This document shows, one piece after another, positions 14,160 through 39,782 of a DNA stretch of 64,000 nucleotides. The position numbers and the translations under genes were made by a program. Position 1 is the first letter of the stretch. The number at the start of each line of letters is the position of its first letter. This DNA is from an uncultured Candidatus Saccharibacteria bacterium (GTDB lineage Bacteria; Patescibacteriota; UBA1384; JACPKC01): positions 160,660 to 224,659 of the forward strand of contig CAYRGD010000001.1 of the NCBI GenBank assembly GCA_964423885.1. Reading direction: 5' to 3'. The notes below the pieces were generated by a model. That model made no database searches, was not told where the DNA came from, and saw only the letters and a list, made by a program, of their open reading frames with translations.

Positions 14160-15464
14160 TTAGGCCTCCAGCCGGACGATGGTAGCGCCCAGTGCGCGGA
14201 GATTGCGTTGGAACTGCGCCGCTCCGTACCCTCGGTCGAGGTGTTCGATCCCGGTCAATCGCGATGTGCCTTTGGCCATGAGTGCCGCGACGACGTGGGC
14301 CATACCGGCACGGATATCCGGAATGGAGAGCGTTGTCGGACGCAGGGTCGCTGGTCCGGTAACTGCCGCGCTGTGGCGGCACCCGAGCTTGGCAAATCGG
14401 CACGGCGTTCCGAAACACTCAGTGCTCACCTCGATCCGCCCGCCCATGGCGCGCAGGTCTTCGGTATAGCGGAGCCGATCCTCGTAGACCGTTTCATGGA
14501 CGCGGGATATACCGTTCGCCGCGAGCAGGACAACGACCGACGGCTGCTGCCAGTCGGCCATGAATCCGGGATGGACACCGGTTTCGATATCGGCGGGCGT
14601 AAGGGGGCCACCGCGCTCGAACCTGATGCCGGCCGCATCCTGCGTTACCCTAGCCCCGATCTGTTGTGCGAAGTCGAGGTAGCGGGTGAGATGTTCCGCA
14701 ACGGCGTTTTCAATGAGGATCGACCCATCGGTCGCGAGGGCGAGCGAGGCATAGGACACTGCTTCGAGCCGGTCGGGCAGTACGGTGTGCTCGGCAGGCG
14801 TGAAGCGGTCCACGCCGCGGATCCGTAGCTGCCGTCCGTCCGTGTCGAATGCAATGTCGGCTCCCATGGCGCGCAGGAAATCGGCTAGAGCGACAACTTC
14901 GGGCTCGACCGCGACGCCGGTCGCAACCGTGATCCCCGACGCCCAGCTCGCTGTAAGCAGGATGGTTTCCGTGGCACCGACACTCGGGTACGGCAGGTGG
15001 ATATCGGCACCATGCAGTCCGTCGGTCCGAGCGGCGAAGCCCTGGTCGGTTTGGACGATCGTCGCCCCTAGCGCCTCAAGCGCGTCGATGTGGAAACCCA
15101 CCGGCCGCCGGCCGATTTGGTCGCCGGTGACCGGCGGCACATGGGCAGTACCGAACCGGTAGAGCAGCGGTCCTAATAGTAAAATAGATAGCCGGCTCTT
15201 GGCGGCCTGTCCGGTGAAATCAGGCGCATGGAGCGTCGACGCGTCGATCCGGATACCGTCCGGACGGCGGTCGATCCGGGCACCGGCGGCACCGATGAGA
15301 TCGAGTGCGATATCGGTCTCGCCGATCTCGGGGGCGTTGTGGACCACCGACGTGCCGCTGGGCAGGAGCGAGGCAAGAATCAGCTTGCTCGCCAGGTTTT
15401 TCGCGCCGGACAACCGGACGCTGCCGGCGAGCGCCGTACCGCCGGTGATGTCGTAGACTGCCAT
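14160..15464 (-). CDS. murA: UDP-N-acetylglucosamine 1-carboxyvinyltransferase
   Basis: EPSP-synthase fold, active-site region LSGAKNLASKL, two-domain inverse alpha/beta repeats, 434 aa. Confidence 0.9.
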   Translation of the reverse strand: MAVYDITGGTALAGSVRLSGAKNLASKLILASLLPSGTSVVHNAPEIGETDIALDLIGAAGARIDRRPDGIRIDASTLHAPDFTGQAAKSRLSILLLGPLLYRFGTAHVPPVTGDQIGRRPVGFHIDALEALGATIVQTDQGFAARTDGLHGADIHLPYPSVGATETILLTASWASGITVATGVAVEPEVVALADFLRAMGADIAFDTDGRQLRIRGVDRFTPAEHTVLPDRLEAVSYASLALATDGSILIENAVAEHLTRYLDFAQQIGARVTQDAAGIRFERGGPLTPADIETGVHPGFMADWQQPSVVVLLAANGISRVHETVYEDRLRYTEDLRAMGGRIEVSTECFGTPCRFAKLGCRHSAAVTGPATLRPTTLSIPDIRAGMAHVVAALMAKGTSRLTGIEHLDRGYGAAQFQRNLRALGATIVRLEA

Positions 15465-15561: not shown

Positions 15562-16266
15562 ATGGAAGAACGCGACGTAGGATGGGACATTGCCGGCGTA
15601 GCATTGCGGTCGGTGCTGACGCTGCTGGCCGCCGCCATCCTCGTGCTCGAGGCGAACGGCTACCTGATCGATTTCAACCGTCTCCGAGCCGAAAAAGCCG
15701 GCCTGCTCGTACTGGAAACCCGTCCGGCCGATGCGAAGGCAATGCTCGACGGCAACGCGTTGCCACTTCGGCGCGGCCAACTGACAACAGCCTATTTCCC
15801 GGATATGTACCGGCTGGACGTGGTCAAAGACGGCTATCATCCGTGGCATCATACGGTCCGCATCGAGCGTGGCCATGTCGCCGTGTTCGACGGTATCGTG
15901 CTGTTTCCACGTGAACGTCCTGTGACCGGTGCCCGGCCTGCGACGACGGCCGAAGCAGCCGCGCCGCTCGTGGGTTCCCAGTTGCGTGTCACTTCGGGCG
16001 AGGTGTGGTATCAGAGCGCGAGAACCGCTGCGGAACAGCTTGTTACCAGGCTGTCGGTGCCGATCCAGGCCGCGGTCCTGCTCGACAAGGCACACGTGCT
16101 CTATCAGGTACGAAGCGGTGTCCATGTCGTCGATCTCGACGGCACGAACGACGTGCTGCTTATCGATCAGGCGCTGCCGGATCCGGCGCGGATGACCGTT
16201 GCCGACGGCGGACGGACGGTGTTGCTTACGGTTGCAGGGACGACGACGTCGTACCGAGTGCAGTAG
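15562..16266 (+). CDS. Membrane-anchored PEGA-domain-like protein
   Basis: N-terminal TM (VALRSVLTLLAAAILVL) and a PEGA-like beta segment LLVLETRPADAKAMLDGNALP...YRLDVVKDGYHPWHHTVRIERGHVAVF. Confidence 0.45.
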   Translation: MEERDVGWDIAGVALRSVLTLLAAAILVLEANGYLIDFNRLRAEKAGLLVLETRPADAKAMLDGNALPLRRGQLTTAYFPDMYRLDVVKDGYHPWHHTVRIERGHVAVFDGIVLFPRERPVTGARPATTAEAAAPLVGSQLRVTSGEVWYQSARTAAEQLVTRLSVPIQAAVLLDKAHVLYQVRSGVHVVDLDGTNDVLLIDQALPDPARMTVADGGRTVLLTVAGTTTSYRVQ

Positions 16267-16981
16267 GCACCGGCTCGGCGTAGAGTACTAGGCGGTTGAG
16301 CGAGGTGCCGACCGGCGTGCAGGTCATAAGTGCCAGCTGGTTACGGTCGAGCGTTTGGTCGCGGATGACCGATACCTTGTCCGGAGCCACGACTTCGCGG
16401 CCGGTCACGACGTACGCGTACGCCTGGCCGTCCCGTTTCAGGAATACCAGGTCGCCGTCGCGGACTTGGTCGAGCAGCGCGAATACCTTAGTCCACGGGT
16501 TGCGCATCCACCAGTATCCCGACGAGTGGCCGACGATGAAGGTGCGGCCGACCTCGCCCGGGTAGTATGATTCGGCGACCTGGACGACTCCCTGCTGGAG
16601 CCCGTTCAAGGCATCATTGACCGGGATATCCCACAGGATCGGTGCCCGGACGTCGATGCTCGGCAGATAGATCGTGCTGTCATCCATCGTGGGGACCGCG
16701 ACTGCCGGCTGTTCCGGGCCGTAGCCCAGGAATTGCGCAGGCGAAAAATCATCGATATGGCTGTTGGCCGCGGACTCACCGTGCAGGAGCCAACGTTCGA
16801 GCGCGAACGTGAGGCGGTCGTACTGCGCCGGGGCGGATAGCGCTACGAAGACAGCCGCCGCCGCGACTGCCGCCCACACGAACTGGGCGACGCGGTGCGA
16901 CGCCGTGCGGGTATGCCGCCGCCGCGCCAGGCGTGCTACCGCCTGGTCGGCGCTATCGAGGGTAAGGAATGCAGTCGACAT
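16226..16981 (-). CDS. Sortase (class unclear) with N-terminal membrane anchor
   Basis: Conserved His (FIVGHSSGYW), Cys in TLxTC-like motif (LALMTCTP), downstream Arg. ATG at 16981 preferred; GTG at 17065 would leave only 14 bp to the divergent gene. Confidence 0.7.
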   Translation of the reverse strand: MSTAFLTLDSADQAVARLARRRHTRTASHRVAQFVWAAVAAAAVFVALSAPAQYDRLTFALERWLLHGESAANSHIDDFSPAQFLGYGPEQPAVAVPTMDDSTIYLPSIDVRAPILWDIPVNDALNGLQQGVVQVAESYYPGEVGRTFIVGHSSGYWWMRNPWTKVFALLDQVRDGDLVFLKRDGQAYAYVVTGREVVAPDKVSVIRDQTLDRNQLALMTCTPVGTSLNRLVLYAEPVPTALGTTSSSLQP

Positions 16982-17516: not shown

Positions 17517-18134
17517 TCAGTTGGCACTAATGCGGACGTCGGCTGCCTGGCCGCGCGCATCGTAGAGTACCCGCAGGGTTAGGCGGTCGGTTGGGATCGC
17601 GGCGGCTTCAGGTCCGAGGCAGTACGACGCCTCGCCGACCTCGTTCTGTCCAAGGAGCGCGGTGATCTGTTGCGGCGTCATGCCGCGGATTTCCTGCACC
17701 AAGGAGGTGACCATCATTTGTCTGGCGCGGCTCGTGCCGCAGCCCGCATCCTGCCATACCTTGGCGTCGAACGGGATCTGTTTGACTGCAAAACCGGGGC
17801 GCAGTACGAGGACTTGCAGCCACAGCGCGACCACTGTCGCGACAATGCCTCCGATGCCGACCATGCTTAGCAGTATTCTGGCCGGACGTTGGGCCGCGAA
17901 GAACGTGCCCGCCAGCATACATGCCACGATCGCGGCAAACAGGCTTGGCAGGAGCGCCAGCAATGGGTGCCCGACGCGTTGGACAAGACTACCGATCTTC
18001 GGTACATGGATAAGCACGCCATAGGTCAGTGTGATCGACAGGGCTGGCAGGCCGAGCCCGACGATACCGCCGACAATCCAGGGAATAATCGGGAGCGTGT
18101 CGGATCCGTGCCGGTCGCTTGCTGGGTGGGCCAT
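17517..18134 (-). CDS. Hypothetical polytopic membrane protein
   Basis: Four to five predicted TM helices followed by a soluble C-terminal ~80-aa domain. No recognisable motifs. Confidence 0.45.
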   Translation of the reverse strand: MAHPASDRHGSDTLPIIPWIVGGIVGLGLPALSITLTYGVLIHVPKIGSLVQRVGHPLLALLPSLFAAIVACMLAGTFFAAQRPARILLSMVGIGGIVATVVALWLQVLVLRPGFAVKQIPFDAKVWQDAGCGTSRARQMMVTSLVQEIRGMTPQQITALLGQNEVGEASYCLGPEAAAIPTDRLTLRVLYDARGQAADVRISAN

Positions 18135-18333: not shown

Positions 18334-19254
18334 ATGGTCACTCGTTTTCGAACGGGATTCTCATCCGCCATCGCAGTCCGCCTCGTAGCGGCGTCGCTGC
18401 TCGTGGCAGTGCCATCCTCCGGCTTCGCACTCGACGGTACTCTGTCCAACGAACGGACCGGCGCGGACTCGGCCAACATGAACGACGTCGCGGTGAACCG
18501 TGACCTTGCGGTATCGCTCACGAACACGGCGAACGTGACGAACTCGTTCAACTTCACGGTCAACACCGGCGGCAACACGGTTACTAATAACACGACGGTC
18601 GGCAATGTCACGACCGGAGATGCAACACTTGAACTGAAAGCGGAGACTACTGTAAACGAACTGCCCGACAGCGCGTTGCAGCAGGCACTTGACCAGTTCG
18701 CAGCCGACGGGACGGCGTCCGTGACGTCGTCGAACGCGCAAACCGGTGCCGGTAGCACCAATACCAACACCACGGGTATCACCAAGAGGGTTCGTACGAA
18801 CGTGACGAATACGATGAATGTCACGAACAACGCGGCGCTCGATATCAATACCGGCGGCAACACCGTGAACGACAATACGACCGTCGGCGATATCACGACA
18901 GGAAACATTTCGGTTATCGCGGCGTTCCTGACCCAAGGAGACGGCAAGGGTGCCGGCTTCCCGGGGAACGATACGCCGGGCGATACGGGTACGGGCGGCG
19001 GCACGAACCCCGGAACGGGTCCGGTAACGGTTGCCCAGCTGCCGCCGACTGTCATCAGTCAGGCGCCAGCGACGACCACGCAGGACGTTGGTCGGGGCGG
19101 CGGCCAGTTCTTTCCGGCTGGCACCGACAGCAACCTTGCCCTGGAACTGCTGGTTTTCGTGATCGCCGCTATCCTGCTGGTACGATTCCAGGAACTGCTC
19201 CCGATACTCTTTCCTCGGCTACAGCGCGTACCAGTTATCCGGCCAGCGCGGTAG
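18334..19254 (+). CDS. Secreted Asn/Thr-rich repeat protein 1 (2 repeat units, C-terminal hydrophobic anchor)
   Basis: GGAGGAGTC RBS, signal peptide MVTRFRTGFSSAIAVRLVAASLLVAVPSSGFA. Two copies of the unit TG-x-(D/N)S-x-N-x-N...V-x-N...NTGGNTV-x-(N/D)NTTVG-(N/D)-(V/I)-TTG. C-terminus FPAGTDSN, then hydrophobic stretch, then R/Q-rich tail. Confidence 0.7.
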   Translation: MVTRFRTGFSSAIAVRLVAASLLVAVPSSGFALDGTLSNERTGADSANMNDVAVNRDLAVSLTNTANVTNSFNFTVNTGGNTVTNNTTVGNVTTGDATLELKAETTVNELPDSALQQALDQFAADGTASVTSSNAQTGAGSTNTNTTGITKRVRTNVTNTMNVTNNAALDINTGGNTVNDNTTVGDITTGNISVIAAFLTQGDGKGAGFPGNDTPGDTGTGGGTNPGTGPVTVAQLPPTVISQAPATTTQDVGRGGGQFFPAGTDSNLALELLVFVIAAILLVRFQELLPILFPRLQRVPVIRPAR

Positions 19255-19352
19255 CGGCATAGTTTGGGTCGATGCGTGTCCGTTATCGTATGCGGCGGCC
19301 ACGTACCATCAGCATACGGTGTGTATATACCTACTGAGAAAGGAACGCCCCT

Positions 19353-20222
19353 ATGAAGATCAACTTCATTTCGGCTCGGGATCGCCTGCGGACACTCGCG
19401 GCTGTTTCAGCTGTCGTCCTCATGAGCGGTGCCGGTTCCGCGTGGGCGTCGGTCGATGTCAGCGGTGAAAACGACACCACTGGCTTCAATTCGACGAACC
19501 GCAACAACTATGACATCAGCGACTCGGTTGACCTTGACGTCGATAACAGCGCCACTGTTACCAACACCCCGTCGGTGACGGCGAACAGCGGTGGCAACGA
19601 TGTCAACAACAACACGACCGTTGATGATGTCATGGGCGGCGATATCGATGTCGAAGGCGAGTTCACGAACGAGCTCAACAGCGCCGACATGGATCTCAGC
19701 CTGGACTCGTTCGGCGATGTCTCGGCTGATTTCACCAACGGCACGACCGGCTCGAACTCGGACAACCGCAACGTCCTCGATGTGAACCGCGATATGGACA
19801 TCACTGTCCGTAACTCGGCGACCATCCGGAACGATATCGATGCCGACCTCAACTCTGGCGATAACCGCACGAACAACAACACCACTGTCGGTGACGTTGA
19901 AACCGGCGCTATCGACTTCAGCGTGACGGTCGACAACAAGGCCAATCAGAACGCTGGCAGCATCAAGCTCCCGGATATGGGTTCGATGGACGTCAATGGC
20001 GATTTCGCCAACGACACCACCGGTGCCAATTCGGAGAACCGGAATACTGTCAACGTCAACGATTCGGCTGACATCACCGTTCGGAACAATGCCACGGTCC
20101 GCAACGACCTGGATATCAACGGTGACTCCGGCCACAACGACGTGAACCGCAACACCACTGTGGGCAACGTCAAGACCGGCGATCAGCGGTATAACTTCAC
20201 CTTCACCAACATCCTGAACTAA
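19353..20222 (+). CDS. Secreted Asn/Thr/Asp-rich repeat protein 2 (3 units of ~90 aa, no anchor)
   Basis: AAAGGAA RBS, signal peptide ending AWASVD. Three units beginning TNGTTGSNSDNRN / ANDTTGANSENRN and ending NNTTVGDVETG / NRNTTVGNVKTG. Confidence 0.7.
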   Translation: MKINFISARDRLRTLAAVSAVVLMSGAGSAWASVDVSGENDTTGFNSTNRNNYDISDSVDLDVDNSATVTNTPSVTANSGGNDVNNNTTVDDVMGGDIDVEGEFTNELNSADMDLSLDSFGDVSADFTNGTTGSNSDNRNVLDVNRDMDITVRNSATIRNDIDADLNSGDNRTNNNTTVGDVETGAIDFSVTVDNKANQNAGSIKLPDMGSMDVNGDFANDTTGANSENRNTVNVNDSADITVRNNATVRNDLDINGDSGHNDVNRNTTVGNVKTGDQRYNFTFTNILN

Positions 20223-20314
20223 CGTTCAGACTGTTGGCTGGTGATGTGGGCGGAGGAAGGTAACTTCCTTCTCCCCATCAGCAGCAACATGAGCGGAGGG
20301 AGCGGCAACTATCT

Positions 20315-22231
20315 ATGAAACACATCACGCTCGTACAACGGATCAGCACCCTGGGTCTCGCAGTCGTCTTGGCGTTCGGCCAAGTCGTCCTGCCGGTCGT
20401 TGCCAGGGCAGATGACGCAGTATTGGCGCCTCGAGGCCCTCAAGGCGTTGTCGGCCCGCAGGGTCCTACCGGACCACAAACGCCGACCGGCCCGAAAGGT
20501 CAGACCGGCGTCCAGCCGATTACTCAACCGACGGATCCTGCCCTTGTCCCGTCGTCCGGTACGCAACCGGCCGTAGCGGCCGACACGCTCGCGCCGTCCG
20601 GCGATACCGCCATGTCGAACGAGACGACCGGAAGCAACTCTGCCAACAGCAATGCCCAGCAGACGACGAACACAGCGGATATCACCAATACGAACGATGC
20701 TTCGGTCGGGAACGATATCAACCTCAATGCGACGAGCGGCGCGAACACGATCAGCCAGAACACGCTCGGCGGCAATATCGCCACCGGCGACCTGCAAGGC
20801 TCGATCAACCTGCTCAATGTCACGAACTCGGTCTTCGCCCCTGGTAGCAGTGTGGGTGTCCAGTCACTCGCGGGCGGAGCGAACGACCTGTATCTCTTGG
20901 CGTCGGACGGCCGCACCTTGTTGCCGACCAACGACACCACCGGCGCGAATTCAGCGAACACCAATACTATCGACGGCACGAACGTGGTTCATTTCATTAC
21001 CGCGAACACGTCAGACGTCGACAACGATGTCACGATCGTGGCGGATACGGGAAACAACGTCGTCACGGAAAACTCATCGCTCGGCGATTTCATGACCGGC
21101 AGCATCGATATGGCGCTCAACCTCATCAATCTCATTAACCTGCAGCTGCCCAACTTGCTCGTGAACTTGGATATCTGGTCGATCTTCGGCGACGTGACCG
21201 GCAACCTCATCTTGCCGACGAACAGCACGACCGGATCGAATTCGCTGAACCAAAACGCGGTCAATCAGACCAATACCGCGGCTGTCGACCTGACGCAGAC
21301 TGCTGATGTGGCCAACGGCTTCAACGTCAAGACGAATACCGGCGGCAACACGATCGACCAGAATACGGTGGTCGGCAACGTGACGACCGGCGACGTCGAT
21401 GTGAAAGGCGGTGTCACAACCGTTGCGAATGCCGGCCAGCCAGTGCTGTACCTCATCAATGTGTTGGGAAAGTGGATCGGCCAGGCGTTCCTGCCGGGTG
21501 TCGGCGTGATCGTGAACGAGCTCGGCAACAGCGATACCGGCGCGAACTCCGAAAACACGAATACGGTCGACCAGACCAACGAGCTGACGGCTAGCGTGGA
21601 TCAGACCGCGACAGTCAATAACTCGATCAACCTCGACCTCAATACCGGAAACAATACCGTCGCCCGGAACTCGAAGGTCGGCGACATTTCTACCGGCGCG
21701 ATCAACGTGATGGCGAACGTCGTCAACTTCGTCAATTCTTTCGGCGGCGATCTGTCGCAATTCTCGCTGGGTATCGTGAACGTGTTCGGCAACTGGTTCG
21801 GGAATGCGGCGACTGCCGGATCGACGGCCAGCGCACTCGGGGAAACCGGCGCAGCTGCAACTGCGGATCAGGCACCGGGGCAGACGGCTGCCAGCGCGCA
21901 ATCGGACGCGGGCCAGACCGAAACCCAAGCAGTCGCTGCGTACGCCTCGGACGCGAGTGCGTCAGGCCAGGCTGTTTCGACTACCGTTGCCGCGACAACC
22001 GCTCCTGCAGCGACTACTGCTGCGGTGGATACGCAGCAGATCGCCTCTGCCCAGGTACTTGGCGCATCGAACACGCTTGCCGACGTACTGCCGCAGGTGG
22101 CGGGTTCGTCCGACCGCAAGGCAAGCGGCAGCGCGTTACCGTGGCTGGTTGCAGGCGCGGTGCTGCTCGCTGGCTGGGTCTTCGTCGAAGTCATGGCCGC
22201 CCGAACCTTGAAGCGCCAAGCAGGACGATAG
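20315..22231 (+). CDS. Secreted Asn/Thr-rich repeat protein 3 (short collagen-like GXY stretch, 4 units of ~100 aa, Ala/Thr linker, C-terminal TM anchor)
   Basis: Signal peptide; GPQGVVGPQGPTGPQTPTGPKGQTG; units start NETTGSNSANSN / NDTTGANSANTN / NSTTGSNSLNQN / NSDTGANSENTN. C-terminus LPQVAGSSDRKASGSALPWLVAGAVLLAGWVFVEVMAARTLKRQAGR. Confidence 0.75.
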   Translation: MKHITLVQRISTLGLAVVLAFGQVVLPVVARADDAVLAPRGPQGVVGPQGPTGPQTPTGPKGQTGVQPITQPTDPALVPSSGTQPAVAADTLAPSGDTAMSNETTGSNSANSNAQQTTNTADITNTNDASVGNDINLNATSGANTISQNTLGGNIATGDLQGSINLLNVTNSVFAPGSSVGVQSLAGGANDLYLLASDGRTLLPTNDTTGANSANTNTIDGTNVVHFITANTSDVDNDVTIVADTGNNVVTENSSLGDFMTGSIDMALNLINLINLQLPNLLVNLDIWSIFGDVTGNLILPTNSTTGSNSLNQNAVNQTNTAAVDLTQTADVANGFNVKTNTGGNTIDQNTVVGNVTTGDVDVKGGVTTVANAGQPVLYLINVLGKWIGQAFLPGVGVIVNELGNSDTGANSENTNTVDQTNELTASVDQTATVNNSINLDLNTGNNTVARNSKVGDISTGAINVMANVVNFVNSFGGDLSQFSLGIVNVFGNWFGNAATAGSTASALGETGAAATADQAPGQTAASAQSDAGQTETQAVAAYASDASASGQAVSTTVAATTAPAATTAAVDTQQIASAQVLGASNTLADVLPQVAGSSDRKASGSALPWLVAGAVLLAGWVFVEVMAARTLKRQAGR

Positions 22232-22237
22232 CGATTG

Positions 22238-22816
22238 ATGCTCAAACGGTTGCTGCTTGGTTCACTCATTACGCTCGGCTTGATACTTGCATGGCACGGC
22301 CCGCTTCTGGCGGGCCTCCTGCGTCCTCGCCTGTACGACGCCGGACTTGTCCGCTCGACTGATGCCGAGATCGGACCCGACGAACTGCGGTACGACCGGC
22401 TTGGGATCCGTGCCCCCGTTTCGGTCGACGCGGATACGAGTCCGCTGGTCGAATCCGATTGGTCGAAGATCACGCAATCGCTCATGGAAGGTGTAAGCCT
22501 GTCGTACGAGGGCGACACGTTCACCGATGCCCGGCTCGCGTTCGTGACGGGACATTCGAGCGACGCGACGCGACATGCGTTCGACAGCGTCTTTGCCGGC
22601 CTCGGCCAAGCGGCGCCAGGCGACACGTTCACGCTTGCGGTCGACGGCGAGCGGTTCGACTACCGGGTCGTGGATCGCCGGACCATTGCGCCAGCCGATG
22701 CCGACGCGTTCCGGCTCCTTGCCCCGAGCGACGATTCGGACCGTGTCGCCCTGGTAACCTGTTGGCCTCCGCTTACCACGAAGACCCGTATGGTTGTCAT
22801 CGGCGTACGGCTCTGA
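22238..22816 (+). CDS. Sortase with N-terminal membrane anchor
   Basis: Starts 7 nt after repeat protein 3. His in FVTGHSSDAT, Cys in ALVTCWPP, Arg in RMVVIGVRL. Confidence 0.75.
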   Translation: MLKRLLLGSLITLGLILAWHGPLLAGLLRPRLYDAGLVRSTDAEIGPDELRYDRLGIRAPVSVDADTSPLVESDWSKITQSLMEGVSLSYEGDTFTDARLAFVTGHSSDATRHAFDSVFAGLGQAAPGDTFTLAVDGERFDYRVVDRRTIAPADADAFRLLAPSDDSDRVALVTCWPPLTTKTRMVVIGVRL

Positions 22817-22851: not shown

Positions 22852-24009
22852 ATGAACCTGCCCGTCCGCCTGCTCATAGTGGCAGTACTCTTCTCGGCCG
22901 TTGTATCCCCTGCTTCGACCAGCGCCCGCGACACGTCCACCCGGCGTTCGATCGTCGTACTCAAATCGAAGGCAGCCCACGACCGCGTGAAGAAGGCGGT
23001 GGCCTTGTCATCCGAGATCGAGGAGATCGCCGACCTGTCGGGCCAGCAGGCACTGGTCACCGAACTCTCCGACGCATCGAAACGGGATCTTGCTCGCAAC
23101 CCCGATGTGCTACGGATCGACGAGGATATCGAACTGTCGGCGGACAGCATCCGGACCGCACCGCAGACGGTGCCGTGGGGCATCGACCGGATCCATGCGC
23201 CGGCCGCGTGGAGTGCCGACACGGGAACGGGTATCGACGTGGCGGTGATCGACACCGGTGTCGACCTCGACCATCCCGACCTGCTGCCGAACATCGGCTC
23301 GGGTATCAATATCGTGAAGCCGAAACGCGCTCCCGACGACGACAACGGCCATGGTACGCATGTGGCCGGGATTATCGGTGCTGCCAGTAATGCGGTCGGG
23401 GTGGTCGGCGTCGCGCCGACTGTCCGGATCCACCCGGTCAAGGTGCTCAAGAGCAACGGAACAGGCTATCTGTCGGATATCATCGCGGGCATTGATTGGG
23501 CGATTGCCAACGGTATGGATGTGATCAATCTGAGTCTTGGTGCCGCGCAGGATATCCCGTCGCTCCATGACGCCGTGCAGCGCGCCGACCGTGCCGGTAT
23601 CGTCGTCGTGGCTGCGGCCGGTAATTCCGGCGGCCCAGTGATGTATCCGGCAGCGTATCCCGAGGTGATCGCGGTCGGTATGATCGGCCAGGACGGCAGT
23701 GTTGACCGGATGTCCTCGCGCGGACCCCAGCTCGACCTGGTTGCTCCCGGGGCAGCGGTCTACTCCACCTATCGTGGCAAGACCTACCGCACCATGACCG
23801 GCACCTCGATGGCCTCGCCTCATGTGGTAGGCGTGGCCGCCCTCCTATTGGCTCGACCGGCTGCCTGCGATACCGACGGCGACGGGCGCTGCTCACGCGA
23901 CGAAGTGGCCCGCCGCCTGGAACGGACCGCGACCGATCTCGGTTCCGCAGGCCGGGATGATGCGTCGGGCTTCGGCCTGGTGAACGCGCAGGCCGCCCTC
24001 GGCTTCTAG
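22852..24009 (+). CDS. Secreted subtilisin-like serine protease (peptidase S8)
   Basis: AGGAGG RBS, signal peptide, catalytic triad motifs VAVIDTGVD, HGTHVAGII, GTSMASPHVVG. Confidence 0.85.
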   Translation: MNLPVRLLIVAVLFSAVVSPASTSARDTSTRRSIVVLKSKAAHDRVKKAVALSSEIEEIADLSGQQALVTELSDASKRDLARNPDVLRIDEDIELSADSIRTAPQTVPWGIDRIHAPAAWSADTGTGIDVAVIDTGVDLDHPDLLPNIGSGINIVKPKRAPDDDNGHGTHVAGIIGAASNAVGVVGVAPTVRIHPVKVLKSNGTGYLSDIIAGIDWAIANGMDVINLSLGAAQDIPSLHDAVQRADRAGIVVVAAAGNSGGPVMYPAAYPEVIAVGMIGQDGSVDRMSSRGPQLDLVAPGAAVYSTYRGKTYRTMTGTSMASPHVVGVAALLLARPAACDTDGDGRCSRDEVARRLERTATDLGSAGRDDASGFGLVNAQAALGF

Positions 24010-31412: not shown

Positions 31413-32468
31413 ATGCACATGAATGCCCTGCGGCGGGTCAGGCAGGCCGCAGCAAGAGGGACAGGACTCGCACTCGTCGGCCTAATGGGGAGCGTGTCCG
31501 TTCTTGCTCTGCCCTTGTCCGCCACCGCAGCGGAGCTGACAGCCGAAAGCACCTCGCTGTCTGATCCGACCATCAGCCATGCGGCCACGACCTACACGGT
31601 CACGCAGAGTAGCGTGTCGCTGAGCGCGATCAAGTGTCTCCAAGTCGTGTTCAGCGTGAACGCCGACGGCACTGGCGGCGTTCCCACCGGCATGAGCACG
31701 ACCTCGGCCACGTTCAATGGCAGCTCGACCTACGTGCCGACCCCGGCATCCTGGTCGGTCGACGCGACCACGAACGGCACGGTCAACATTACCTTCGCGA
31801 CCGGCGAAACGCCGGCCTCCGCGTCGGGACGGACGATCGTGTTGGGCAGTATCACGAACGGCTCCACGGCCAATACCACCTACTACACCACCGTGCAGAC
31901 GTTCAATAACACCGACTGCTCGACCTCGCCGGTCGACGATGGTGGCCAGTCCACGTACGTGTTCGTGGACGGTGTGGTGGTGACTGCGACGGTCAACCCG
32001 ACGCTCACCTTTACGGTCGATTCCACCACTTGTAACCTGGGTACACTGACGTCTTCGAGTACCGGTAACTGCAGCCATACGATAACTGCGGCATCGAACG
32101 CGACGAGCGGCTACGTGATCTCGTACATCGCGAGTCCGACGCTCACGAGCGGCGGTAACACGATTACGGCCAACGGTGCGTCCGCGGTCGCCAACGCGAC
32201 CAACACCGAACAGTTCGGTCTCAACTTGGTGGCGAATAGCTCGCCTTCGGTCGGGGCTAACCCGTCGGGCGGTACCGGCGCTGCAGCGGCCAACTACAAT
32301 ACGGCGAACAGCTTCGCGTTCACGACTGCGGGCGCGACCGTCGCGACCACAGCTGGTCCGAGCGCGCTGACGACATATACGGTATCGTACATCGCGAACA
32401 TCGACGCGGTTACCGAAGCCGGCCTGTACACGAAGACGCAGACGTATACCATCACAGCAACGTACTAA
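31413..32468 (+). CDS. Secreted beta-rich surface protein, WxL-like C-terminal region (paralogue A)
   Basis: AAGGAGGG RBS, signal peptide ...ALPLSATAAE, Thr/Ser/Asn-rich beta segments. C-terminus EQFGLNLV...TYTVSYIANIDAVTEAGLYTKTQTYTITATY. Confidence 0.55.
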   Translation: MHMNALRRVRQAAARGTGLALVGLMGSVSVLALPLSATAAELTAESTSLSDPTISHAATTYTVTQSSVSLSAIKCLQVVFSVNADGTGGVPTGMSTTSATFNGSSTYVPTPASWSVDATTNGTVNITFATGETPASASGRTIVLGSITNGSTANTTYYTTVQTFNNTDCSTSPVDDGGQSTYVFVDGVVVTATVNPTLTFTVDSTTCNLGTLTSSSTGNCSHTITAASNATSGYVISYIASPTLTSGGNTITANGASAVANATNTEQFGLNLVANSSPSVGANPSGGTGAAAANYNTANSFAFTTAGATVATTAGPSALTTYTVSYIANIDAVTEAGLYTKTQTYTITATY

Positions 32469-32487
32469 GAAAGGAGAGGGGCATATT

Positions 32488-33492
32488 ATGACTACGCATC
32501 GCATGAAACGTCTTGCTTTCGCCGCTGGCGTCGCGGCACTCGCGGGAATGGTAGGAGCGCCGCTCATCGCGGCTGCGCAAGCCGCCGCGACTACGACTAG
32601 CGCCAACGCGGTCGACGTATCGATCACGCCGCTCATCCGCGACGTGACAGCCAAACCCGGCGATACCTTCACGGGTTCGATCGAGGTGAAGAACGAATCG
32701 GATGCCAAGCAGACCTTTTTCCCGGCTGCCCGCGACTTCACGGCGTCGGACGACTCCACGAGCGGCGCACCCAAGTTCCTTGAGACAGCCGGTGTTCCCG
32801 AACAAAGCCTGTCGTCATGGGTCAAGTTCAAGCAGACTTCGGTGCCGATCGACGCGAAAAAGTCCGCGATGATCGACTACACGGTCGTCGTCCCCGCGAA
32901 CGCGGAACCGGGCGGCCACTATGCCGGCATCTTCGCTTCCACTCAGGCGCCTGATGTCACTGGCGGCTCGGGTGTCGCGATCGCCGCGCGGGTCGGCTCC
33001 CTGCTCCTGCTGACGGTGTCCGGCGATATCCGGACCTCGGCCGAGATCTCATCGTTCAAGACTGACAAGTCTGTCTACCAGTCCGGCCCGATCAGCTTTA
33101 TTGCCGACCTCAAGAACGACGGCAATATCCACTTCAAGCCGAAAGGTACGATCGATGTGAAGAACGGCACCATGGTCAAATCGGTGGCGTTCAACGAGAA
33201 TGGCGGCAACGTCTTGCCGTCGAGCGTCCGCGAGTTCACCAGTAACCTGGACGGCAACTTCGGATTCGGGCGGTACACGGCGACGCTGACGCTCACTGCG
33301 CAGGCATCGAACGGAGACACGATTCCCCTCACCTCGGTGGTCAGTTTCTGGGTGATCCCGATGAGCACCGTCCTCATCGCGCTCCTTATTCTCATCGTGC
33401 TCTACATGCTGCTCAAGAACGGCATGAAGGAAAGCAGCGCGAAGGGTGGCAGTAACATGGCGGCTCCGGCAACCAAGAAGGCGTCGAAGTAA
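32488..33492 (+). CDS. DUF916/DUF3324-like cell-surface protein with C-terminal TM anchor and Lys-rich tail (CscA-like)
   Basis: Signal peptide; VDVSITPLIRDVTAKPGDTFTGSIEVKNESDAKQTFF resembles the DUF916 N-terminal consensus as I recall it; second half YAGIFAS...IAARVGSLLLL is DUF3324-like. C-terminal TM VIPMSTVLIALLILIVLYMLL followed by KNGMKESSAKGG. Confidence 0.55.
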   Translation: MTTHRMKRLAFAAGVAALAGMVGAPLIAAAQAAATTTSANAVDVSITPLIRDVTAKPGDTFTGSIEVKNESDAKQTFFPAARDFTASDDSTSGAPKFLETAGVPEQSLSSWVKFKQTSVPIDAKKSAMIDYTVVVPANAEPGGHYAGIFASTQAPDVTGGSGVAIAARVGSLLLLTVSGDIRTSAEISSFKTDKSVYQSGPISFIADLKNDGNIHFKPKGTIDVKNGTMVKSVAFNENGGNVLPSSVREFTSNLDGNFGFGRYTATLTLTAQASNGDTIPLTSVVSFWVIPMSTVLIALLILIVLYMLLKNGMKESSAKGGSNMAAPATKKASK

Positions 33493-33513
33493 CACGCGGC
33501 GCAGATCGGAACA

Positions 33514-33547
33514 ACGACGGATCCCACAGGGTCCGTCGTTTTGTTTG
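33514..33547 (+). terminator. Intrinsic terminator after the first WxL-like/DUF916 pair
   Basis: ACGACGGATCC-cacag-GGTCCGTCGT (10-bp stem, one mismatch) followed by TTTTGTTTGGG. A TATACT -10-like hexamer lies downstream at 33562-33567, before the next gene. Confidence 0.55.
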
Positions 33548-33586
33548 GGCTAGTGCATTGCTATACTGGATCCGACATCGGAGGGA

Positions 33587-34612
33587 ATGATGGCGCAGGT
33601 GTTCAATCGGTTACTTGTCGTAGTTTGTGTGGCACTGACGGCCTTGCAGTTCTTCCCGTTGCCGCTTGAGGCCGCCGAACTGACTGCCGAGAGCGTCGCA
33701 CTCACTGATCCGACCGTCGGCCAAGCGGGTGTCACCTACGATATCGTGCTGGGAGGGCAATCTACGGCGGCGATCCGATGCATCACCGTTCGGTTCACCG
33801 GGACAATCGGCACGAACGACCCGCCTGCCGGCATGGATATTGGTAGCGCGGTTTTCGATGCGGCCAGCACGATCGTGCCTACGCCTGCGGCTTGGTCGGC
33901 AGTCGGTGTGAACGGTACCGGTATCGTAATGATTACGAATGCGCTCGGTGAAAATCCGGCCGGCGGTGCAAACCGGACGCTTATCCTGAACGGTATCACG
34001 AACGGCAGCGCAGGCAATACTACCTACTACGCCGAGGTAAATACGTTCGCCGATGCAGGGTGCACCGCCCTTGTCGATACCGACGGCCAGGCAGCCTTCG
34101 TGTTCACCTCCGGGGTACTGGTGACATCCACGGTAAACGACGTGCTCAACTTCTCGCTCACACCGGGGTGTTCTGCTGGTGAGCTCAATCAGGCAGCCGC
34201 CAAGACCTGTACGCTCGAGATGCATGCCTCGACTAATCATCCGACCGGGTACAGCGTGTCGTACTCGGCAGTGGAGACTATGCACGAAGCGTCCCACTTG
34301 GACACGATCGCTGCGGTAGGCGCTACCGCCCAGACGAGTGCTCCCGGCACGAAGCAGTTCGGGTTCAACCTGGTTGGTAACATGGTGCCGACAACAGGTG
34401 CCGACCCGGTCGGCGGTACCGGCGCTGCGTTCGGCCAGTACGCCATCGCGGACAAGTTTGCGTTCACGACCGCCGGCGGCACGATCGCCAGCGCTGCTTC
34501 TTCGAGTAGCGATACGCAGTATACGGTGTCGTACCTGGTCAACGTCGAGCCGAACATGGTGTCCGGTTCCTACGTAGCACAGCAGACGTACACGATCGTG
34601 GTGAATCCATGA
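33587..34612 (+). CDS. Secreted beta-rich surface protein, WxL-like C-terminal region (paralogue B)
   Basis: Colinear with paralogue A (AAELTAES...; TPAAWS; NTTYYAEVNTF; KQFGFNLV). C-terminus QYTVSYLVNVEPNMVSGSYVAQQTYTIVVNP. Confidence 0.55.
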   Translation: MMAQVFNRLLVVVCVALTALQFFPLPLEAAELTAESVALTDPTVGQAGVTYDIVLGGQSTAAIRCITVRFTGTIGTNDPPAGMDIGSAVFDAASTIVPTPAAWSAVGVNGTGIVMITNALGENPAGGANRTLILNGITNGSAGNTTYYAEVNTFADAGCTALVDTDGQAAFVFTSGVLVTSTVNDVLNFSLTPGCSAGELNQAAAKTCTLEMHASTNHPTGYSVSYSAVETMHEASHLDTIAAVGATAQTSAPGTKQFGFNLVGNMVPTTGADPVGGTGAAFGQYAIADKFAFTTAGGTIASAASSSSDTQYTVSYLVNVEPNMVSGSYVAQQTYTIVVNP

Positions 34613-35235
34613 CGCGGCGATTTATTGCGCTCGGTATACTTACGGCCGTCGTAAGCTGGTCGGCAGTGACGCAGGGGGCAGATACGATTTCGATCGAACC
34701 GGCCACTGTGTCAGTACGTGTCGCGGCCGGTGAGGTGACGCTGCAAACGGTGTACTTCACGAACCGTAGCGGCGACACCAAGGCGTTCAGCGTCGAGCGG
34801 TCGGATTACCGGCCTGACGCCTCGTCACGGAACGCGTTCGAATTTCTGCCGGCCGGGAGTACCGACGATAGCATCCATCCGATGCTGGATGTCACGCCGT
34901 TGCGGTTCGAGCTCGGGTCGGGCAAGACGCAGGAACTGCTGGTTCGTATCCGGCCGGCAACGACGGCAAGCAACGGTAACTACAAAGGCGCGCTCTTTGT
35001 CGGCGAGGATCCGGGCGCTAGCGTCGACGCGTCACTCCAGGTGCTTGGGCGTGTCGGTACGATGATCGGCGTGACCGTGACCGACGGCCGGCCCCCCGCC
35101 GGCGTCCATCCGTTCACCGGCCAGCCGAACGCGTTGGCTGTCGCAGCGATCGCTATCCTTGCCCTCTTCTTCCTAGGTGTCGGCTTGGCAGCCGCCCGCA
35201 AGGCGCGCCAGCTGGAAGCCGATCGCATCTCCTAA
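34609..35235 (+). CDS. Short DUF916-like cell-surface protein with C-terminal TM anchor
   Basis: Signal peptide, beta-sandwich-like segment ISIEPATVSVRVAAGEVTLQTVYFTNRSGDTKAF, C-terminal TM LAVAAIAILALFFLGVGLAAA followed by RKARQLE. Start overlaps the preceding gene. Confidence 0.45.
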   Translation: MTRRFIALGILTAVVSWSAVTQGADTISIEPATVSVRVAAGEVTLQTVYFTNRSGDTKAFSVERSDYRPDASSRNAFEFLPAGSTDDSIHPMLDVTPLRFELGSGKTQELLVRIRPATTASNGNYKGALFVGEDPGASVDASLQVLGRVGTMIGVTVTDGRPPAGVHPFTGQPNALAVAAIAILALFFLGVGLAAARKARQLEADRIS

Positions 35236-39706: not shown

Positions 39707-39727
39707 ACCAAACCGCGGCCGACAATA

Positions 39728-39756
39728 TTCCACAGGCCCGCGATGCGCGGTATACT
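39728..39756 (+). promoter_or_regulatory. Candidate sigma70-type promoter for clpB
   Basis: TTCCAC, 17-nt spacer, TATACT, ~25 nt upstream of the AAAGGAGTGAGG RBS. No CIRCE or HAIR inverted repeat seen. Confidence 0.35.
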
Positions 39757-39782
39757 GCTTCCATATAAAAGGAGTGAGGACT

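What the first reader, a model, noticed from the sequence alone, without database searches (positions are those of the whole stretch)
19100..22816. Non-canonical C-terminal anchors on repeat proteins 1 and 3, immediately followed by a sortase
Protein 3 ends ...LPQVAGSSDRKASGSALPWLVAGAVLLAGWVFVEVMAARTLKRQAGR, an LPxxG-like pentapeptide, a 13-aa polar spacer, a TM helix and a basic tail. Protein 1 ends ...FPAGTDSN-LALELLVFVIAAILLV-RFQ...R. Protein 2 has no anchor. The tripartite layout (motif, hydrophobic stretch, basic tail) is the sortase cell-wall sorting-signal architecture, but the pentapeptides are not LPXTG or LAXTG and the spacing is atypical. Two sortases (16226-16981 and 22238-22816) flank the locus. 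This may be a divergent sortase/substrate pair with an unusual recognition motif, or simple membrane anchoring.
Basis: partly seen in the sequence, partly recalled or inferred. Interest (0 to 1): 0.6.

Follow-up and report, generated by a model that had tools for sequence, protein, structure and literature searches.

The report
Divergent sortase anchor signals, Patescibacteria operon
Two secreted repeat proteins of an uncultivated Patescibacteria (CPR) bacterium end in an unusual, conserved version of the tag that sortase enzymes use to fix proteins to the cell wall, and a dedicated sortase gene follows them directly, so this is probably a new variant of a well-known anchoring system rather than a new kind of system.

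Summary

**Protein 1.** The motif should be read FFPAG|T, not FPAGT. All 31 small membrane-anchored relatives carry [FY]F[PA][AS]G 1-7 residues before the transmembrane helix. Composition-preserving shuffles give a mean of 0.7.

**Protein 3.** The "LP" of LPQVAG is not conserved. Only [VI]AG[STA] is, and only in the nearer relatives. Other family members carry LPETG, LPxAG, LAxTG, LPLSG or FPVAG in the C-terminal tail upstream of the anchor helix, which points to a degenerate LPXTG-type signal.

**Sortase 2** (22238-22816) starts 6 nt after protein 3's stop codon.
- It has the invariant His/Cys/Arg triad and a confident sortase fold, nearest to class C.
- It reaches no class A-F cut-off.
- In every locus with flanking DNA it sits directly after a protein-3 homologue.

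**Sortase 1** belongs to a different, widespread CPR module (sortase, one gene, murA) and is probably a housekeeping enzyme.

**Best reading (about 0.55):** proteins 1 and 3 are sortase substrates with an x-A|G signal, and protein 2 is an unanchored partner.

**Rivals:** plain membrane anchoring, or shedding by the co-encoded subtilase.

This is a new variant of a known kind. No cleavage has been shown.

The parts
16226..16981 (-). Sortase 1 (251 aa from ATG 16981; longest ORF reaches 17065). It has an N-terminal TM anchor and a ...LALMTCTPVGTSLNRLV active-site region. Probably the general (housekeeping) CPR sortase, part of a sortase-X-murA module.
   Evidence: PF04203 at 81.9 bits. Below all NCBIfam class cut-offs, best class C at 57 bits against 160. 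H152/C221/R230 are invariant in 6 orthologues. There are >=475 metagenome relatives. In 24 of the 44 loci with enough flank, murA lies 0.7-1.5 kb downstream. Only 2 of 79 loci have p1/p2.
17517..18134 (-). Conserved multi-TM membrane protein (205 aa) between sortase 1 and protein 1. Role unknown; listed as context.
   Evidence: No Pfam or NCBIfam hit. Orthologues sit at the same position in L006, L007 and L039, and one is also present in L041.
18334..19254 (+). Protein 1 (306 aa): signal peptide, two Asn/Thr/Gly-rich beta-repeat modules, Gly/Pro/Thr linker, then the FFPAG sorting-signal-like tail.
   Evidence: Translation. Identical to P0121. Family alignment A3. No Pfam or NCBIfam family.
19108..19122 (+). 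FFPAG, the proposed sortase recognition pentapeptide of protein 1, with cleavage expected between A and G.
   Evidence: F259, F260, A262 and G263 are invariant and P261 is >=90% conserved in A3. 31/31 small TM-bearing relatives carry FFPAG (17), FFAAG (4), FFPSG (4) or close variants (one each: YFAAG, FFQAG, IIPAG, YFPAG, FFPVG, FVPAG) 1-7 aa before the TM. Also conserved in the syntenic orthologues of L003, L006, L007 and L001; L035 has YFPSG.
19135..19251 (+). Protein 1 TM helix (19135-19182, LALELLVFVIAAILLV) and its 23-aa Arg-rich tail, which carries one conserved Glu (RFQELL...).
   Evidence: Hydropathy scan, translation, tail alignment.
19353..20222 (+). Protein 2 (289 aa): signal peptide and three repeat modules, with no C-terminal anchor. 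Ends in the conserved ...FTFTNILN.
   Evidence: 88 of 252 family members lack a C-terminal TM, most of them 200-400 aa.
20315..22231 (+). Protein 3 (638 aa): signal peptide, collagen-like G-X-Y run (20435-20509), four beta-rich repeat modules, a disordered ~100-aa Ala/Thr/Ser linker, TM helix and basic tail.
22088..22105 (+). LPQVAG. The conserved core is [VI]AG followed by [STA][STA]. Proposed degenerate sorting motif of protein 3, with cleavage at A|G.
   Evidence: Tail alignment: [VI]AG is invariant in P0001-P0007 while the preceding residues vary (LPQ, LPR, DPQ, SPQ, SGA, SPV, AAQ). Also EVAGAS in L035/P0015, AVAGTA in P0010 and LVAGTS in P0008. Enrichment is 11 observed against 1.5 expected.
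22145..22228 (+). Protein 3 TM helix (22145-22201), with the conserved W-x3-E motif (GWVFVEVMAAR), and basic tail RTLKRQAGR.
   Evidence: The W..E motif occurs in 49 of 133 large TM-bearing family members.
22238..22816 (+). Sortase 2 (192 aa): N-terminal TM anchor plus catalytic domain. Operon-specific sortase; its ATG lies 6 nt after the protein 3 stop codon.
   Evidence: PF04203 at 45.8 bits. H106/C175/R184 are invariant in 18 homologues. AF2 pLDDT 92.7. Foldseek top hits are class C pilus sortases, E 2.7e-11 at 17-23% identity. Best NCBIfam class C score is 49.8 against a cut-off of 160. It lies directly downstream of a protein-3 homologue in the window, L001/L002/L005, L003, L006, L007 and L035.
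22852..24009 (+). Secreted subtilisin-like S8 peptidase (385 aa, with signal peptide and propeptide). It follows sortase 2 in the window clade. Candidate maturation or shedding protease.
   Evidence: PF00082 at 205 bits. Start chosen. Orthologues follow sortase 2 in L001, L003, L006 and L007. S8-like genes also sit in the FPVAG-clade operons L033, L036 and L037.

Best explanation
This is a conserved Patescibacteria surface-protein operon: p1, p2, p3, sortase 2, S8 peptidase.

**Proposed mechanism**
- All three repeat proteins are exported by Sec (signal peptides read from the sequence; inferred).
- Proteins 1 and 3 are held in the membrane by a C-terminal helix and a charged tail.
- The co-transcribed, membrane-anchored sortase 2 (Cys175 nucleophile, His106, Arg184) cuts them at a divergent sorting motif whose shared core is x-[P/V]-A|G-[S/T]. 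In protein 1 this is FFPA|G, 4 residues before the helix. In protein 3 it is (PQ)VA|G, 13 residues before the helix.
- Sortase 2 then transfers the ectodomain to a peptidoglycan precursor.
- Protein 2 has the same repeats but no anchor, so it would join the anchored proteins non-covalently. This resembles short chaplins joining sortase-anchored long chaplins.
- Sortase 1 upstream is the general CPR sortase, linked to murA. It may serve xPxTG-type substrates such as the HPFTG protein at 34609-35235.

**What is shown and what is inferred**
- Shown: motif conservation, synteny, sortase fold and catalytic triad.
- Inferred: the cleavage itself, its exact position, which sortase acts on which protein, and the acceptor.
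For: 1. Protein-1 motif. FF.AG is invariant across an alignment spanning 32-55% identity while the linker and tail vary. 31/31 small TM-bearing members of a family of 1335 clusters carry it 1-7 aa before the TM. The spacing, hydrophobic segment and Arg/Lys tail match the tripartite sorting-signal layout.
2. Continuum to canonical signals. In the C-terminal tail upstream of the TM (0-40 aa before it), large family members carry LPETG, LPATG, LPVTG, LPLSG, LAxTG, LPxAG, FPTSG or FPVAG. That is 48 of 133, against a shuffle mean of 10.6 and a maximum of 21.
3. Sortase 2 is an intact sortase: Pfam hit, invariant H/C/R, a pLDDT 92.7 model and class-C-like fold hits.
4. Gene coupling. The gap or overlap between p3 and sortase 2 is 3-12 nt in the window-clade loci and the genes overlap in L035. 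Sortase-2 homologues were found only directly after p3 homologues. L035 has p2, p1 (YFPSG), p3 (EVAGAS) and a sortase-2-like gene, with no sortase 1 or S8 detected within about 10 kb. There the operon sortase alone accompanies both motif types.
5. [VI]AG is invariant in the variable linker of p3 orthologues.
6. Natural LPxAG substrates of SrtA are known in S. aureus (PMC3436756), so Ala at P1 has precedent.
7. Cell-wall synthesis genes (murA) are adjacent.
Against: - No biochemical data exist for any CPR sortase or substrate (literature searches).
- The L and P that canonical sortases read most strongly are absent or not conserved in protein 3.
- The [VI]AG core is missing in P0009, P0011 and P0014. 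P0011 appears to share a contig with a sortase-2 homologue, judged only from equal contig lengths.
- The 13-aa spacer and the conserved Glu at the cytoplasmic end of both helices are atypical for sorting signals.
- A second conserved island, ASAQVLGA, with the same Q-V-x-G-[AS] shape lies 7 residues upstream, so the real site is ambiguous.
- The large FPVAG clade has an S8 peptidase but no sortase within 10 kb.
- No NCBIfam anchor model matches either tail, even at E<=10.
- The motif patterns were defined after seeing the data, and the sequences are phylogenetically related.
Confidence: 0.55

Rival explanations
1. Plain membrane anchoring. Proteins 1 and 3 stay as C-terminally anchored membrane proteins. 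The conserved residues before the helix are structural (a turn or juxtamembrane contact), and the sortases act on other substrates such as xPxTG proteins.
For: - The protein-3 motif is weak and is lost in part of the family, whereas its TM (W-x3-E) and basic tail are the most conserved tail features.
- A more canonical candidate substrate, HPFTG, exists in the window.
- SPRTG sits directly upstream of a sortase-1-like gene in L023.
- No anchor HMM matches the tails.
Against: - The motif is present in 31 of 31 p1-type proteins at a fixed distance from the helix, inside an otherwise variable low-complexity linker.
- Relatives carry canonical LPXTG variants at the same position.
- A dedicated sortase is translationally coupled to p3 in all loci seen.
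Confidence: 0.17
2. Protease shedding. The co-encoded secreted S8 subtilase, not a sortase, cuts the conserved motif and releases the ectodomains from their membrane anchors. F at P4 and A at P1 in FFPA|G and FPVA|G fit general subtilisin preferences; that preference is stated from general knowledge.
For: - An S8 gene follows sortase 2 in the window, L001, L003, L006 and L007.
- S8-like genes sit in the FPVAG-clade operons L033, L036 and L037, which have no sortase within 10 kb.
- There is precedent for a protease that cleaves sortase substrates near their anchor: ZmpI in C. difficile (PMC4591827 abstract, listed).
Against: - L035 and L004 have motif-bearing proteins with an adjacent sortase but no S8 within 8-10 kb.
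- The motif plus helix plus charged tail, and the continuum to LPXTG, LAXTG and LPLSG, are hallmarks of sortase signals rather than of subtilase sites.
- The general sortase in CPR is encoded elsewhere, next to murA, so a missing neighbouring sortase is weak evidence.
Confidence: 0.13
3. Sortase-built fibre. Sortase 2 acts like a pilus-specific class C sortase and joins proteins 1, 3 and perhaps 2 covalently into a heteropolymeric surface filament. Sortase 1 then attaches it to the wall.
For: - The closest structural and sequence matches of sortase 2 are class C pilus sortases.
- The layout of an operon-specific sortase plus a separate housekeeping sortase mirrors Gram-positive pilus loci.
- The operon encodes three paralogous secreted subunits.
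Against: - No invariant Lys exists in the protein-1 or protein-3 family alignments, so there is no conserved pilin-type nucleophile.
- The subunits are predicted as beta-helix-like repeats, not CnaA/CnaB Ig-like pilin domains.
- Protein 2 has no sorting signal.
- No conserved DPW/DPY lid motif is visible in the sortase-2 alignment (by inspection).
- Similarity to class C is remote: 17-23% identity and 50 bits against a cut-off of 160.
Confidence: 0.1

Closest known systems
LPXTG-type cell-wall sorting signal processed by sortases (classes A-F; variants LPXTG, NPXTG, LPXTA, LAXTG; natural LPxAG in S. aureus)
   Same: - N-terminal signal peptide.
- A conserved short motif ending in Gly, then a hydrophobic helix, then an Arg/Lys-rich tail.
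- A sortase with the His-Cys-Arg triad encoded next to the substrate.
- Family relatives carry true LPETG, LAxTG and LPLSG at the same position.
- The class and motif table comes from PMC8225981; LPxAG comes from PMC3436756.
   Different: - Protein 1 has Phe-Phe-Pro-Ala-Gly: no Leu, Pro shifted by one position, and Ala instead of Thr.
- Protein 3 keeps only [VI]-Ala-Gly, has a 13-aa spacer, and has a conserved W-x3-E inside the helix.
- Both tails carry a conserved Glu, which is unusual for the positively charged tail.
- No curated anchor HMM matches either tail.
Class C (pilus-specific) sortases, e.g. Actinomyces oris SrtC1 (PDB 2xwg) and C. perfringens SrtC (7d6t)
   Same: - Best fold and profile matches of sortase 2.
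- Operon-specific and co-transcribed with its presumed substrates.
- A separate housekeeping sortase exists in the genome.
   Different: - Only 17-23% identity, and 49.8 bits against the class C cut-off of 160.
- N-terminal rather than C-terminal TM anchor.
- No conserved lid motif seen in the alignment.
- The substrates lack pilin folds and a conserved Lys.
Streptomyces chaplins with class E sortases (long ChpA-C carry LAXTG anchors; short chaplins are unanchored)
   Same: Paralogous secreted repeat proteins, some with a sortase signal and some without, are expected to co-assemble on the cell surface (analogy drawn from PMC8225981). Some relatives in this family do carry LAxTG (P0041, P0046, P0048, P0060, P0097).
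Pam pili of CPR bacteria (bioRxiv 10.64898/2026.03.03.709456)
   Same: A CPR-restricted, operon-encoded surface appendage system made of previously unannotated secreted proteins.
   Different: Pam pilins are Ig-like and assemble by donor-strand exchange with chaperone-like proteins. That paper mentions sortases only as general background and does not implicate one in Pam pilus assembly. There is no similarity in architecture to the repeat proteins here.

Membership tests
Sortase family (Pfam PF04203 / MEROPS C60): sortase 2 and sortase 1 | Sortase domain scoring above the curated threshold | tested here: met
   Sortase 2 scores 45.8 bits and sortase 1 scores 81.9 bits against a cut-off of 26.6. 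TIGR01076 sortase_fam: 39.6 bits (marginal) and 56.2 bits against 39.35.
Sortase family (Pfam PF04203 / MEROPS C60): sortase 2 and sortase 1 | Catalytic His-Cys-Arg triad, with the Cys in a TLxTC-like motif | tested here: met
   Sortase 2: H106, C175 (ALVTCWP) and R184 are invariant in 18 sequences. Sortase 1: H152, C221 (LMTCTP) and R230 are invariant in 6 sequences.
Sortase family (Pfam PF04203 / MEROPS C60): sortase 2 and sortase 1 | Eight-stranded sortase beta-barrel fold | tested here: met
   Tested for sortase 2 only. AF2 pLDDT 92.7. 134 PDB matches with E<=1e-3; all 50 listed are sortases, top E 2.7e-11.
Sortase classes A-F (NCBIfam class models) | Score above the class-specific cut-off (140-166 bits) | tested here: not met
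   Sortase 2: class C 49.8, class D 22. Sortase 1: class C 57.2, D 50.3, E 42.8, F 23.8. All are far below the cut-offs. No phylogeny was run.
LPXTG-type cell-wall sorting signal (proteins 1 and 3) | N-terminal Sec signal peptide | tested here: met
   Read from the sequence: a basic n-region, a hydrophobic core and an AxA-like site (..SSGFA|LDG in p1..VARA|DDA in p3). No dedicated signal-peptide predictor was available.
LPXTG-type cell-wall sorting signal (proteins 1 and 3) | Pentapeptide LPXTG or a recognised class variant (NPXTG, LPXTA, LAXTG) | tested here: not met
   Protein 1 has FFPAG and protein 3 has (LP)QVAG. No NCBIfam anchor model hits the tails at E<=10.
LPXTG-type cell-wall sorting signal (proteins 1 and 3) | Motif conserved among homologues at a fixed place just upstream of the helix | tested here: met
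   Met for protein 1: 31/31, 1-7 aa before the TM. Protein 3 is only partial: [VI]AG in 11 relatives, absent in P0009, P0011 and P0014.
LPXTG-type cell-wall sorting signal (proteins 1 and 3) | Hydrophobic segment followed by a positively charged C-terminal tail | tested here: met
   p1: a 16-aa helix plus a tail with 5 Arg. p3: a 19-aa helix plus RTLKRQAGR. AF2 places a helix at 608-637. Both also contain a conserved Glu, which is atypical.
LPXTG-type cell-wall sorting signal (proteins 1 and 3) | Cleavage within the motif and amide linkage to peptidoglycan | not testable with these tools
   This needs peptide cleavage assays or mass spectrometry of the native protein.
Sortase-assembled (class C) pilus | Pilin subunits with a conserved Lys nucleophile (pilin motif) | tested here: not met
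   No invariant or near-invariant Lys appears in the protein-3 (A2, 50 sequences) or protein-1 (A3, 11 sequences) alignments.
Sortase-assembled (class C) pilus | CnaA/CnaB-type Ig-like pilin domains | tested here: not met

The most novel reading that the evidence does not exclude
Sortase 2 would represent a Patescibacteria-specific sortase class whose natural recognition signal is [FY]FP[AS]|G (plus a degenerate [VI]A|G form) instead of LPXTG. On this reading the conserved Glu and W-x3-E in the substrate helices act as a second, intramembrane recognition element. The enzyme would build a wall-anchored beta-helical surface layer or fibre from an unannotated repeat family of more than 1300 clusters. 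That structure could mediate the attachment of these episymbiotic cells to their hosts.
Probability: 0.3. Interest if true: 0.7.

Novelty: new variant of a known kind. Interest (0 to 1): 0.5.

Why it matters
Sortases are reported in more than half of CPR/Patescibacteria genomes (PMC6744442). I found no paper that defines what they recognise or what they anchor.

If the FFPAG-type signal is real, three things follow.
- It gives a searchable rule for predicting part of the wall-anchored surface proteome of these uncultivated, host-attached bacteria.
- It assigns a role to a large repeat-protein family with no Pfam or NCBIfam annotation.
- It adds a natural sortase with Phe/Pro/Ala-Gly specificity, which could serve as an orthogonal tool for protein ligation.

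The claim can be tested directly with two short peptides and one small recombinant enzyme.

Tried and rejected
1. **Pfam and NCBIfam on proteins 1-3 and on their tails.** No family was found, so nothing could be named from libraries.
2. **Look-up of the window's own contig by exact protein.** It was not on record and no accession or name came back. The organism is known only as Patescibacteria-like, from its relatives.
3. **Genome-collection scan with the sortase-2 profile.** Only five Patescibacteria loci came back: three with sortase-2 homologues (L005-L007) and two that turned out to be sortase-1-like (L008, L023). The rest were proteobacterial sortases matching over part of the domain and were discarded as irrelevant.
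4. **The first S8 query in my scripts was taken in the wrong frame (22794).** therefore missed the S8 genes. This was corrected with 22852-24009.
6. **The ~300-aa gene that replaces sortase 2 in FPVAG-clade operons.** I considered it as a cryptic sortase and rejected that. The L004 copy has no Cys and there is no sortase similarity.
7. **The Pam pilus system of CPR.** Its architecture is unrelated.
8. **Pairing each sortase with one substrate by co-occurrence.** This was only partly resolvable. Sortase 2 is operon-specific and sortase 1 is general, but which one cuts which tail remains inference.


Full report
**What is there**

The window has about 62% G+C. Its closest relatives are all metagenome-assembled Patescibacteria (CPR) genomes.

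Between 16.2 and 24.0 kb the genes are, in order:
- murA (14160-15464, minus strand) and a small ORF;
- sortase 1 (16226-16981, minus strand);
- a multi-TM protein (17517-18134, minus strand);
- protein 1 (18334-19254), protein 2 (19353-20222) and protein 3 (20315-22231), all on the plus strand;
- sortase 2 (22238-22816);
- a secreted S8 subtilase (22852-24009).

Protein 1 ends FFPAG-TDSN-LALELLVFVIAAILLV-RFQELLPILFPRLQRVPVIRPAR. Protein 3 ends LPQVAG-SSDRKASGSALPW-LVAGAVLLAGWVFVEVMAA-RTLKRQAGR. Protein 2 ends FTFTNILN without an anchor.

**The repeat proteins**

- Proteins 1, 2 and 3 contain two, three and four copies of an Asn/Thr/Gly-rich module (N.TTG..S.N.N ... NTG.N....NT..G...TGD).
- None matches any Pfam or NCBIfam family.
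- A profile of the protein-1 family finds 1335 clusters at 50% identity with E<=1e-3.
- AlphaFold models the four modules of protein 3 confidently (pLDDT 85-94) as long-strand beta units. The 100-residue linker carrying LPQVAG is modelled as disordered, followed by a terminal helix.
- Protein 3 also has a short collagen-like G-X-Y run after its signal peptide.

**Is the protein-1 motif real?**

In an 11-sequence alignment spanning 32-55% identity to protein 1, the only invariant columns in the C-terminal third, apart from one Gly, are F259, F260, A262 and G263, with P261 nearly invariant. The syntenic orthologues in L003, L006, L007 and L001 have FFPAG, and L035 has YFPSG.

Among all family proteins collected, 31 are small (<345 aa) with a C-terminal helix. 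All 31 carry FFPAG (17), FFAAG (4), FFPSG (4) or a close variant 1-7 residues before the helix. Shuffling each linker gives 0.7 on average and 6 at most.

The pattern was written after seeing the data and the sequences are related. Even so, the contrast with the freely varying flanks is strong. The motif should be read FFPA|G-T, parallel to LPXT|G.

**Is the protein-3 motif real?**

Only in part.
- In the seven closest orthologues (56-67% identity) the residues before the motif vary (LPQ, LPR, DPQ, SPQ, SGA, SPV, AAQ), while [VI]AG followed by two small residues is invariant.
- More distant relatives have EVAGAS (L035), AVAGTA and LVAGTS.
- P0009, P0011 and P0014 have nothing comparable. P0011 appears to share a contig with a sortase-2 homologue, judged only from matching contig lengths.
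- So the "LP" that made the hexapeptide look LPxxG-like is largely coincidental.

Two other features are conserved:
- a second island, ASAQVLGA, with the same Q-V-x-G-[AS] shape lies 7 residues upstream of LPQVAG;
- a W-x3-E motif sits at the cytoplasmic end of the helix in 49 of 133 large members.

In the C-terminal tail upstream of the anchor helix, other large members carry LPETG, LPATG, LPVTG, LPLSG, LAxTG, LPDAG, LPIAG, FPTSG or, in a ~1000-aa clade, RFPVAG (20 proteins). Overall 48 of 133 have an LPXTG-like pentapeptide, against a shuffle mean of 10.6 and a maximum of 21. The simplest reading is that the family ancestrally carried an LPX[TAS]G-type signal and that the window's clade holds a degenerate form.

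**The sortases**

*Sortase 2*
- Its Pfam sortase domain scores above threshold.
- H106, C175 and R184 are invariant across 18 homologues.
- The model is confident (pLDDT 92.7). Its best PDB matches are class C pilus sortases, at only 17-23% identity.
- Against the NCBIfam class models it reaches at most 49.8 bits where 160 are required, so it belongs to no defined class.
- Its homologues are few: 19 in a 5.8-billion-protein search.
- Wherever flanking DNA is available (window, L001/L002/L005, L003, L006, L007, L035) the gene lies 3-12 nt after, or overlapping, a protein-3 homologue.

*Sortase 1*
- At least 475 relatives were found in metagenomes.
- Of the 44 loci with enough downstream sequence, 24 have murA 0.7-1.5 kb downstream on the same strand.
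- Only 2 of 79 loci, both from the window's own clade, have the repeat proteins.
- It is therefore best seen as the general CPR sortase that happens to abut this operon, not as part of it.

**Operon variants**

- Window clade and a Berkelbacteria genome (L003): p1, p2, p3, sortase 2, S8.
- L035: p2, p1, p3, sortase 2-like, without S8.
- An Andersenbacteria locus (L004): p2, p3 with LADTG, a 306-aa protein, then a sortase.
- The RFPVAG clade (L033, L034, L036, L037): p2-like, p3-like, a ~300-aa TM protein without Cys, an S8-like peptidase (three of the four loci), and further genes including a TrwB-like ATPase and DUF3048. No sortase lies within 10 kb.

**Most likely mechanism**

Proteins 1 and 3 are exported and held by their C-terminal helix. 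Sortase 2 then cuts them at x-[P/V]-A|G-[S/T] and transfers them to peptidoglycan. Protein 2 associates without a covalent anchor.

Ala at the cleavage position has natural precedent in the two LPxAG proteins of S. aureus (PMC3436756). I put about 0.55 on this reading overall, higher for protein 1 than for protein 3.

A pilus-like covalent polymer is less likely. Neither family has a conserved Lys and the subunits are not pilin-like.

The two main rivals are plain membrane anchoring and cleavage by the co-encoded subtilase. The subtilase's synteny extends to the sortase-less FPVAG clade. Both remain open because no cleavage has been observed.

**Comparison with what is known**

It works like the classic sortase and cell-wall sorting signal system. 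The enzymes are members of the sortase family by domain, triad and fold. They are not members of any of the classes A-F, and the substrate tails fail the literal LPXTG criterion and all curated anchor models.

The literature held here mentions CPR sortases only in passing (PMC6744442, PMC4736985, PMC6851277, PMC7143001). No paper uses FFPAG or FPVAG as a sortase motif. The recently described Pam pili of CPR are unrelated.

**Verdict**

A real, conserved feature. It is a new variant of a known kind of system, of moderate interest, and testable with a simple peptide assay.

Noticed in passing
window 34609-35235 (+), with neighbours 31413-34612 (+): A 208-aa secreted protein ends ...GVHPFTGQPN-ALAVAAIAILALFFLGVGLAA-ARKARQLEADRIS. 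This is an xPxTG-like signal with a helix and basic tail, and it looks more canonical than the tails of proteins 1 and 3. It weakly touches an LPXTG anchor model (E 0.036, below cut-off). It closes a run of four secreted proteins, one of which has a weak WxL-interacting-protein domain hit (E 0.003).
   Followed up: partly
window 16226-16981 (-) and 14160-15464 (-); loci L045-L105: Sortase-1-type genes form a conserved module with murA across CPR metagenomes. In 24 of 44 loci with enough flank, murA lies 0.7-1.5 kb downstream on the same strand, with one small gene between. This links the general CPR sortase to peptidoglycan precursor synthesis.
   Followed up: partly
window 22043-22066 (+): A second conserved island, ASAQVLGA, in the protein-3 linker lies 7 residues upstream of LPQVAG. 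It has the same Q-V-x-G-[AS] shape as the QVAGS motif. Other subclades have [VI]L[VI]K[SD]Y at this place. Its role is unknown, and it makes the true processing site ambiguous.
   Followed up: partly
window 22172-22201 (+) and 19183-19200 (+): A conserved acidic residue sits at the cytoplasmic end of both anchor helices. Protein 3 has W-x3-E (GWVFVEVMAAR), found in 49 of 133 large family members. Protein-1 relatives have R/Y-x-x-E-L just after the helix. This is atypical for sortase signals and might be a second recognition element.
   Followed up: partly
loci L033, L034, L036, L037 (and L004): A clade of ~1000-aa relatives with an invariant RFPVAG[SG] tail motif sits in a different conserved operon. 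The order is a CAP-domain protein (in L034, L036 and L037), p2-like, RFPVAG protein, a ~300-aa TM protein, S8-like peptidase (three of four loci), a DUF8128/TrwB-like ATPase and DUF3048. No sortase lies within 10 kb.
   Followed up: partly
window 20435-20509 (+): Protein 3 has a collagen-like run, GPQGVVGPQGPTGPQTPTGPKGQTG, right after its signal peptide. One homologue (P0013) has a Pfam Collagen hit and another (P0005) is named collagen-like. This hints at trimerisation.
   Followed up: no
window 37256-40888 (-): A 1210-aa protein has a Peptidase_S74 domain (intramolecular chaperone of endosialidase and tail-fibre proteins; E 2e-12) near its C-terminus. It may be a self-cleaving fibre or adhesin, or it may be of phage origin.
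   Followed up: no
protein family of window 18334-22231; P0105: The repeat family has 1335 clusters at 50% identity and no Pfam or NCBIfam model. One hit (P0105, 409 aa, with a C-terminal helix and KRRKK tail) is labelled Candidatus Aenigmarchaeota archaeon in nr. That could be a DPANN homologue or a binning error.
   Followed up: no
window 17517-18134 (-): A conserved multi-TM protein lies between sortase 1 and protein 1 in the window clade (L006, L007, L039). By eye its C-terminal part (GMTPQQITALLG...) resembles a BamE/SmpA-like domain. There was no library hit.
   Followed up: no
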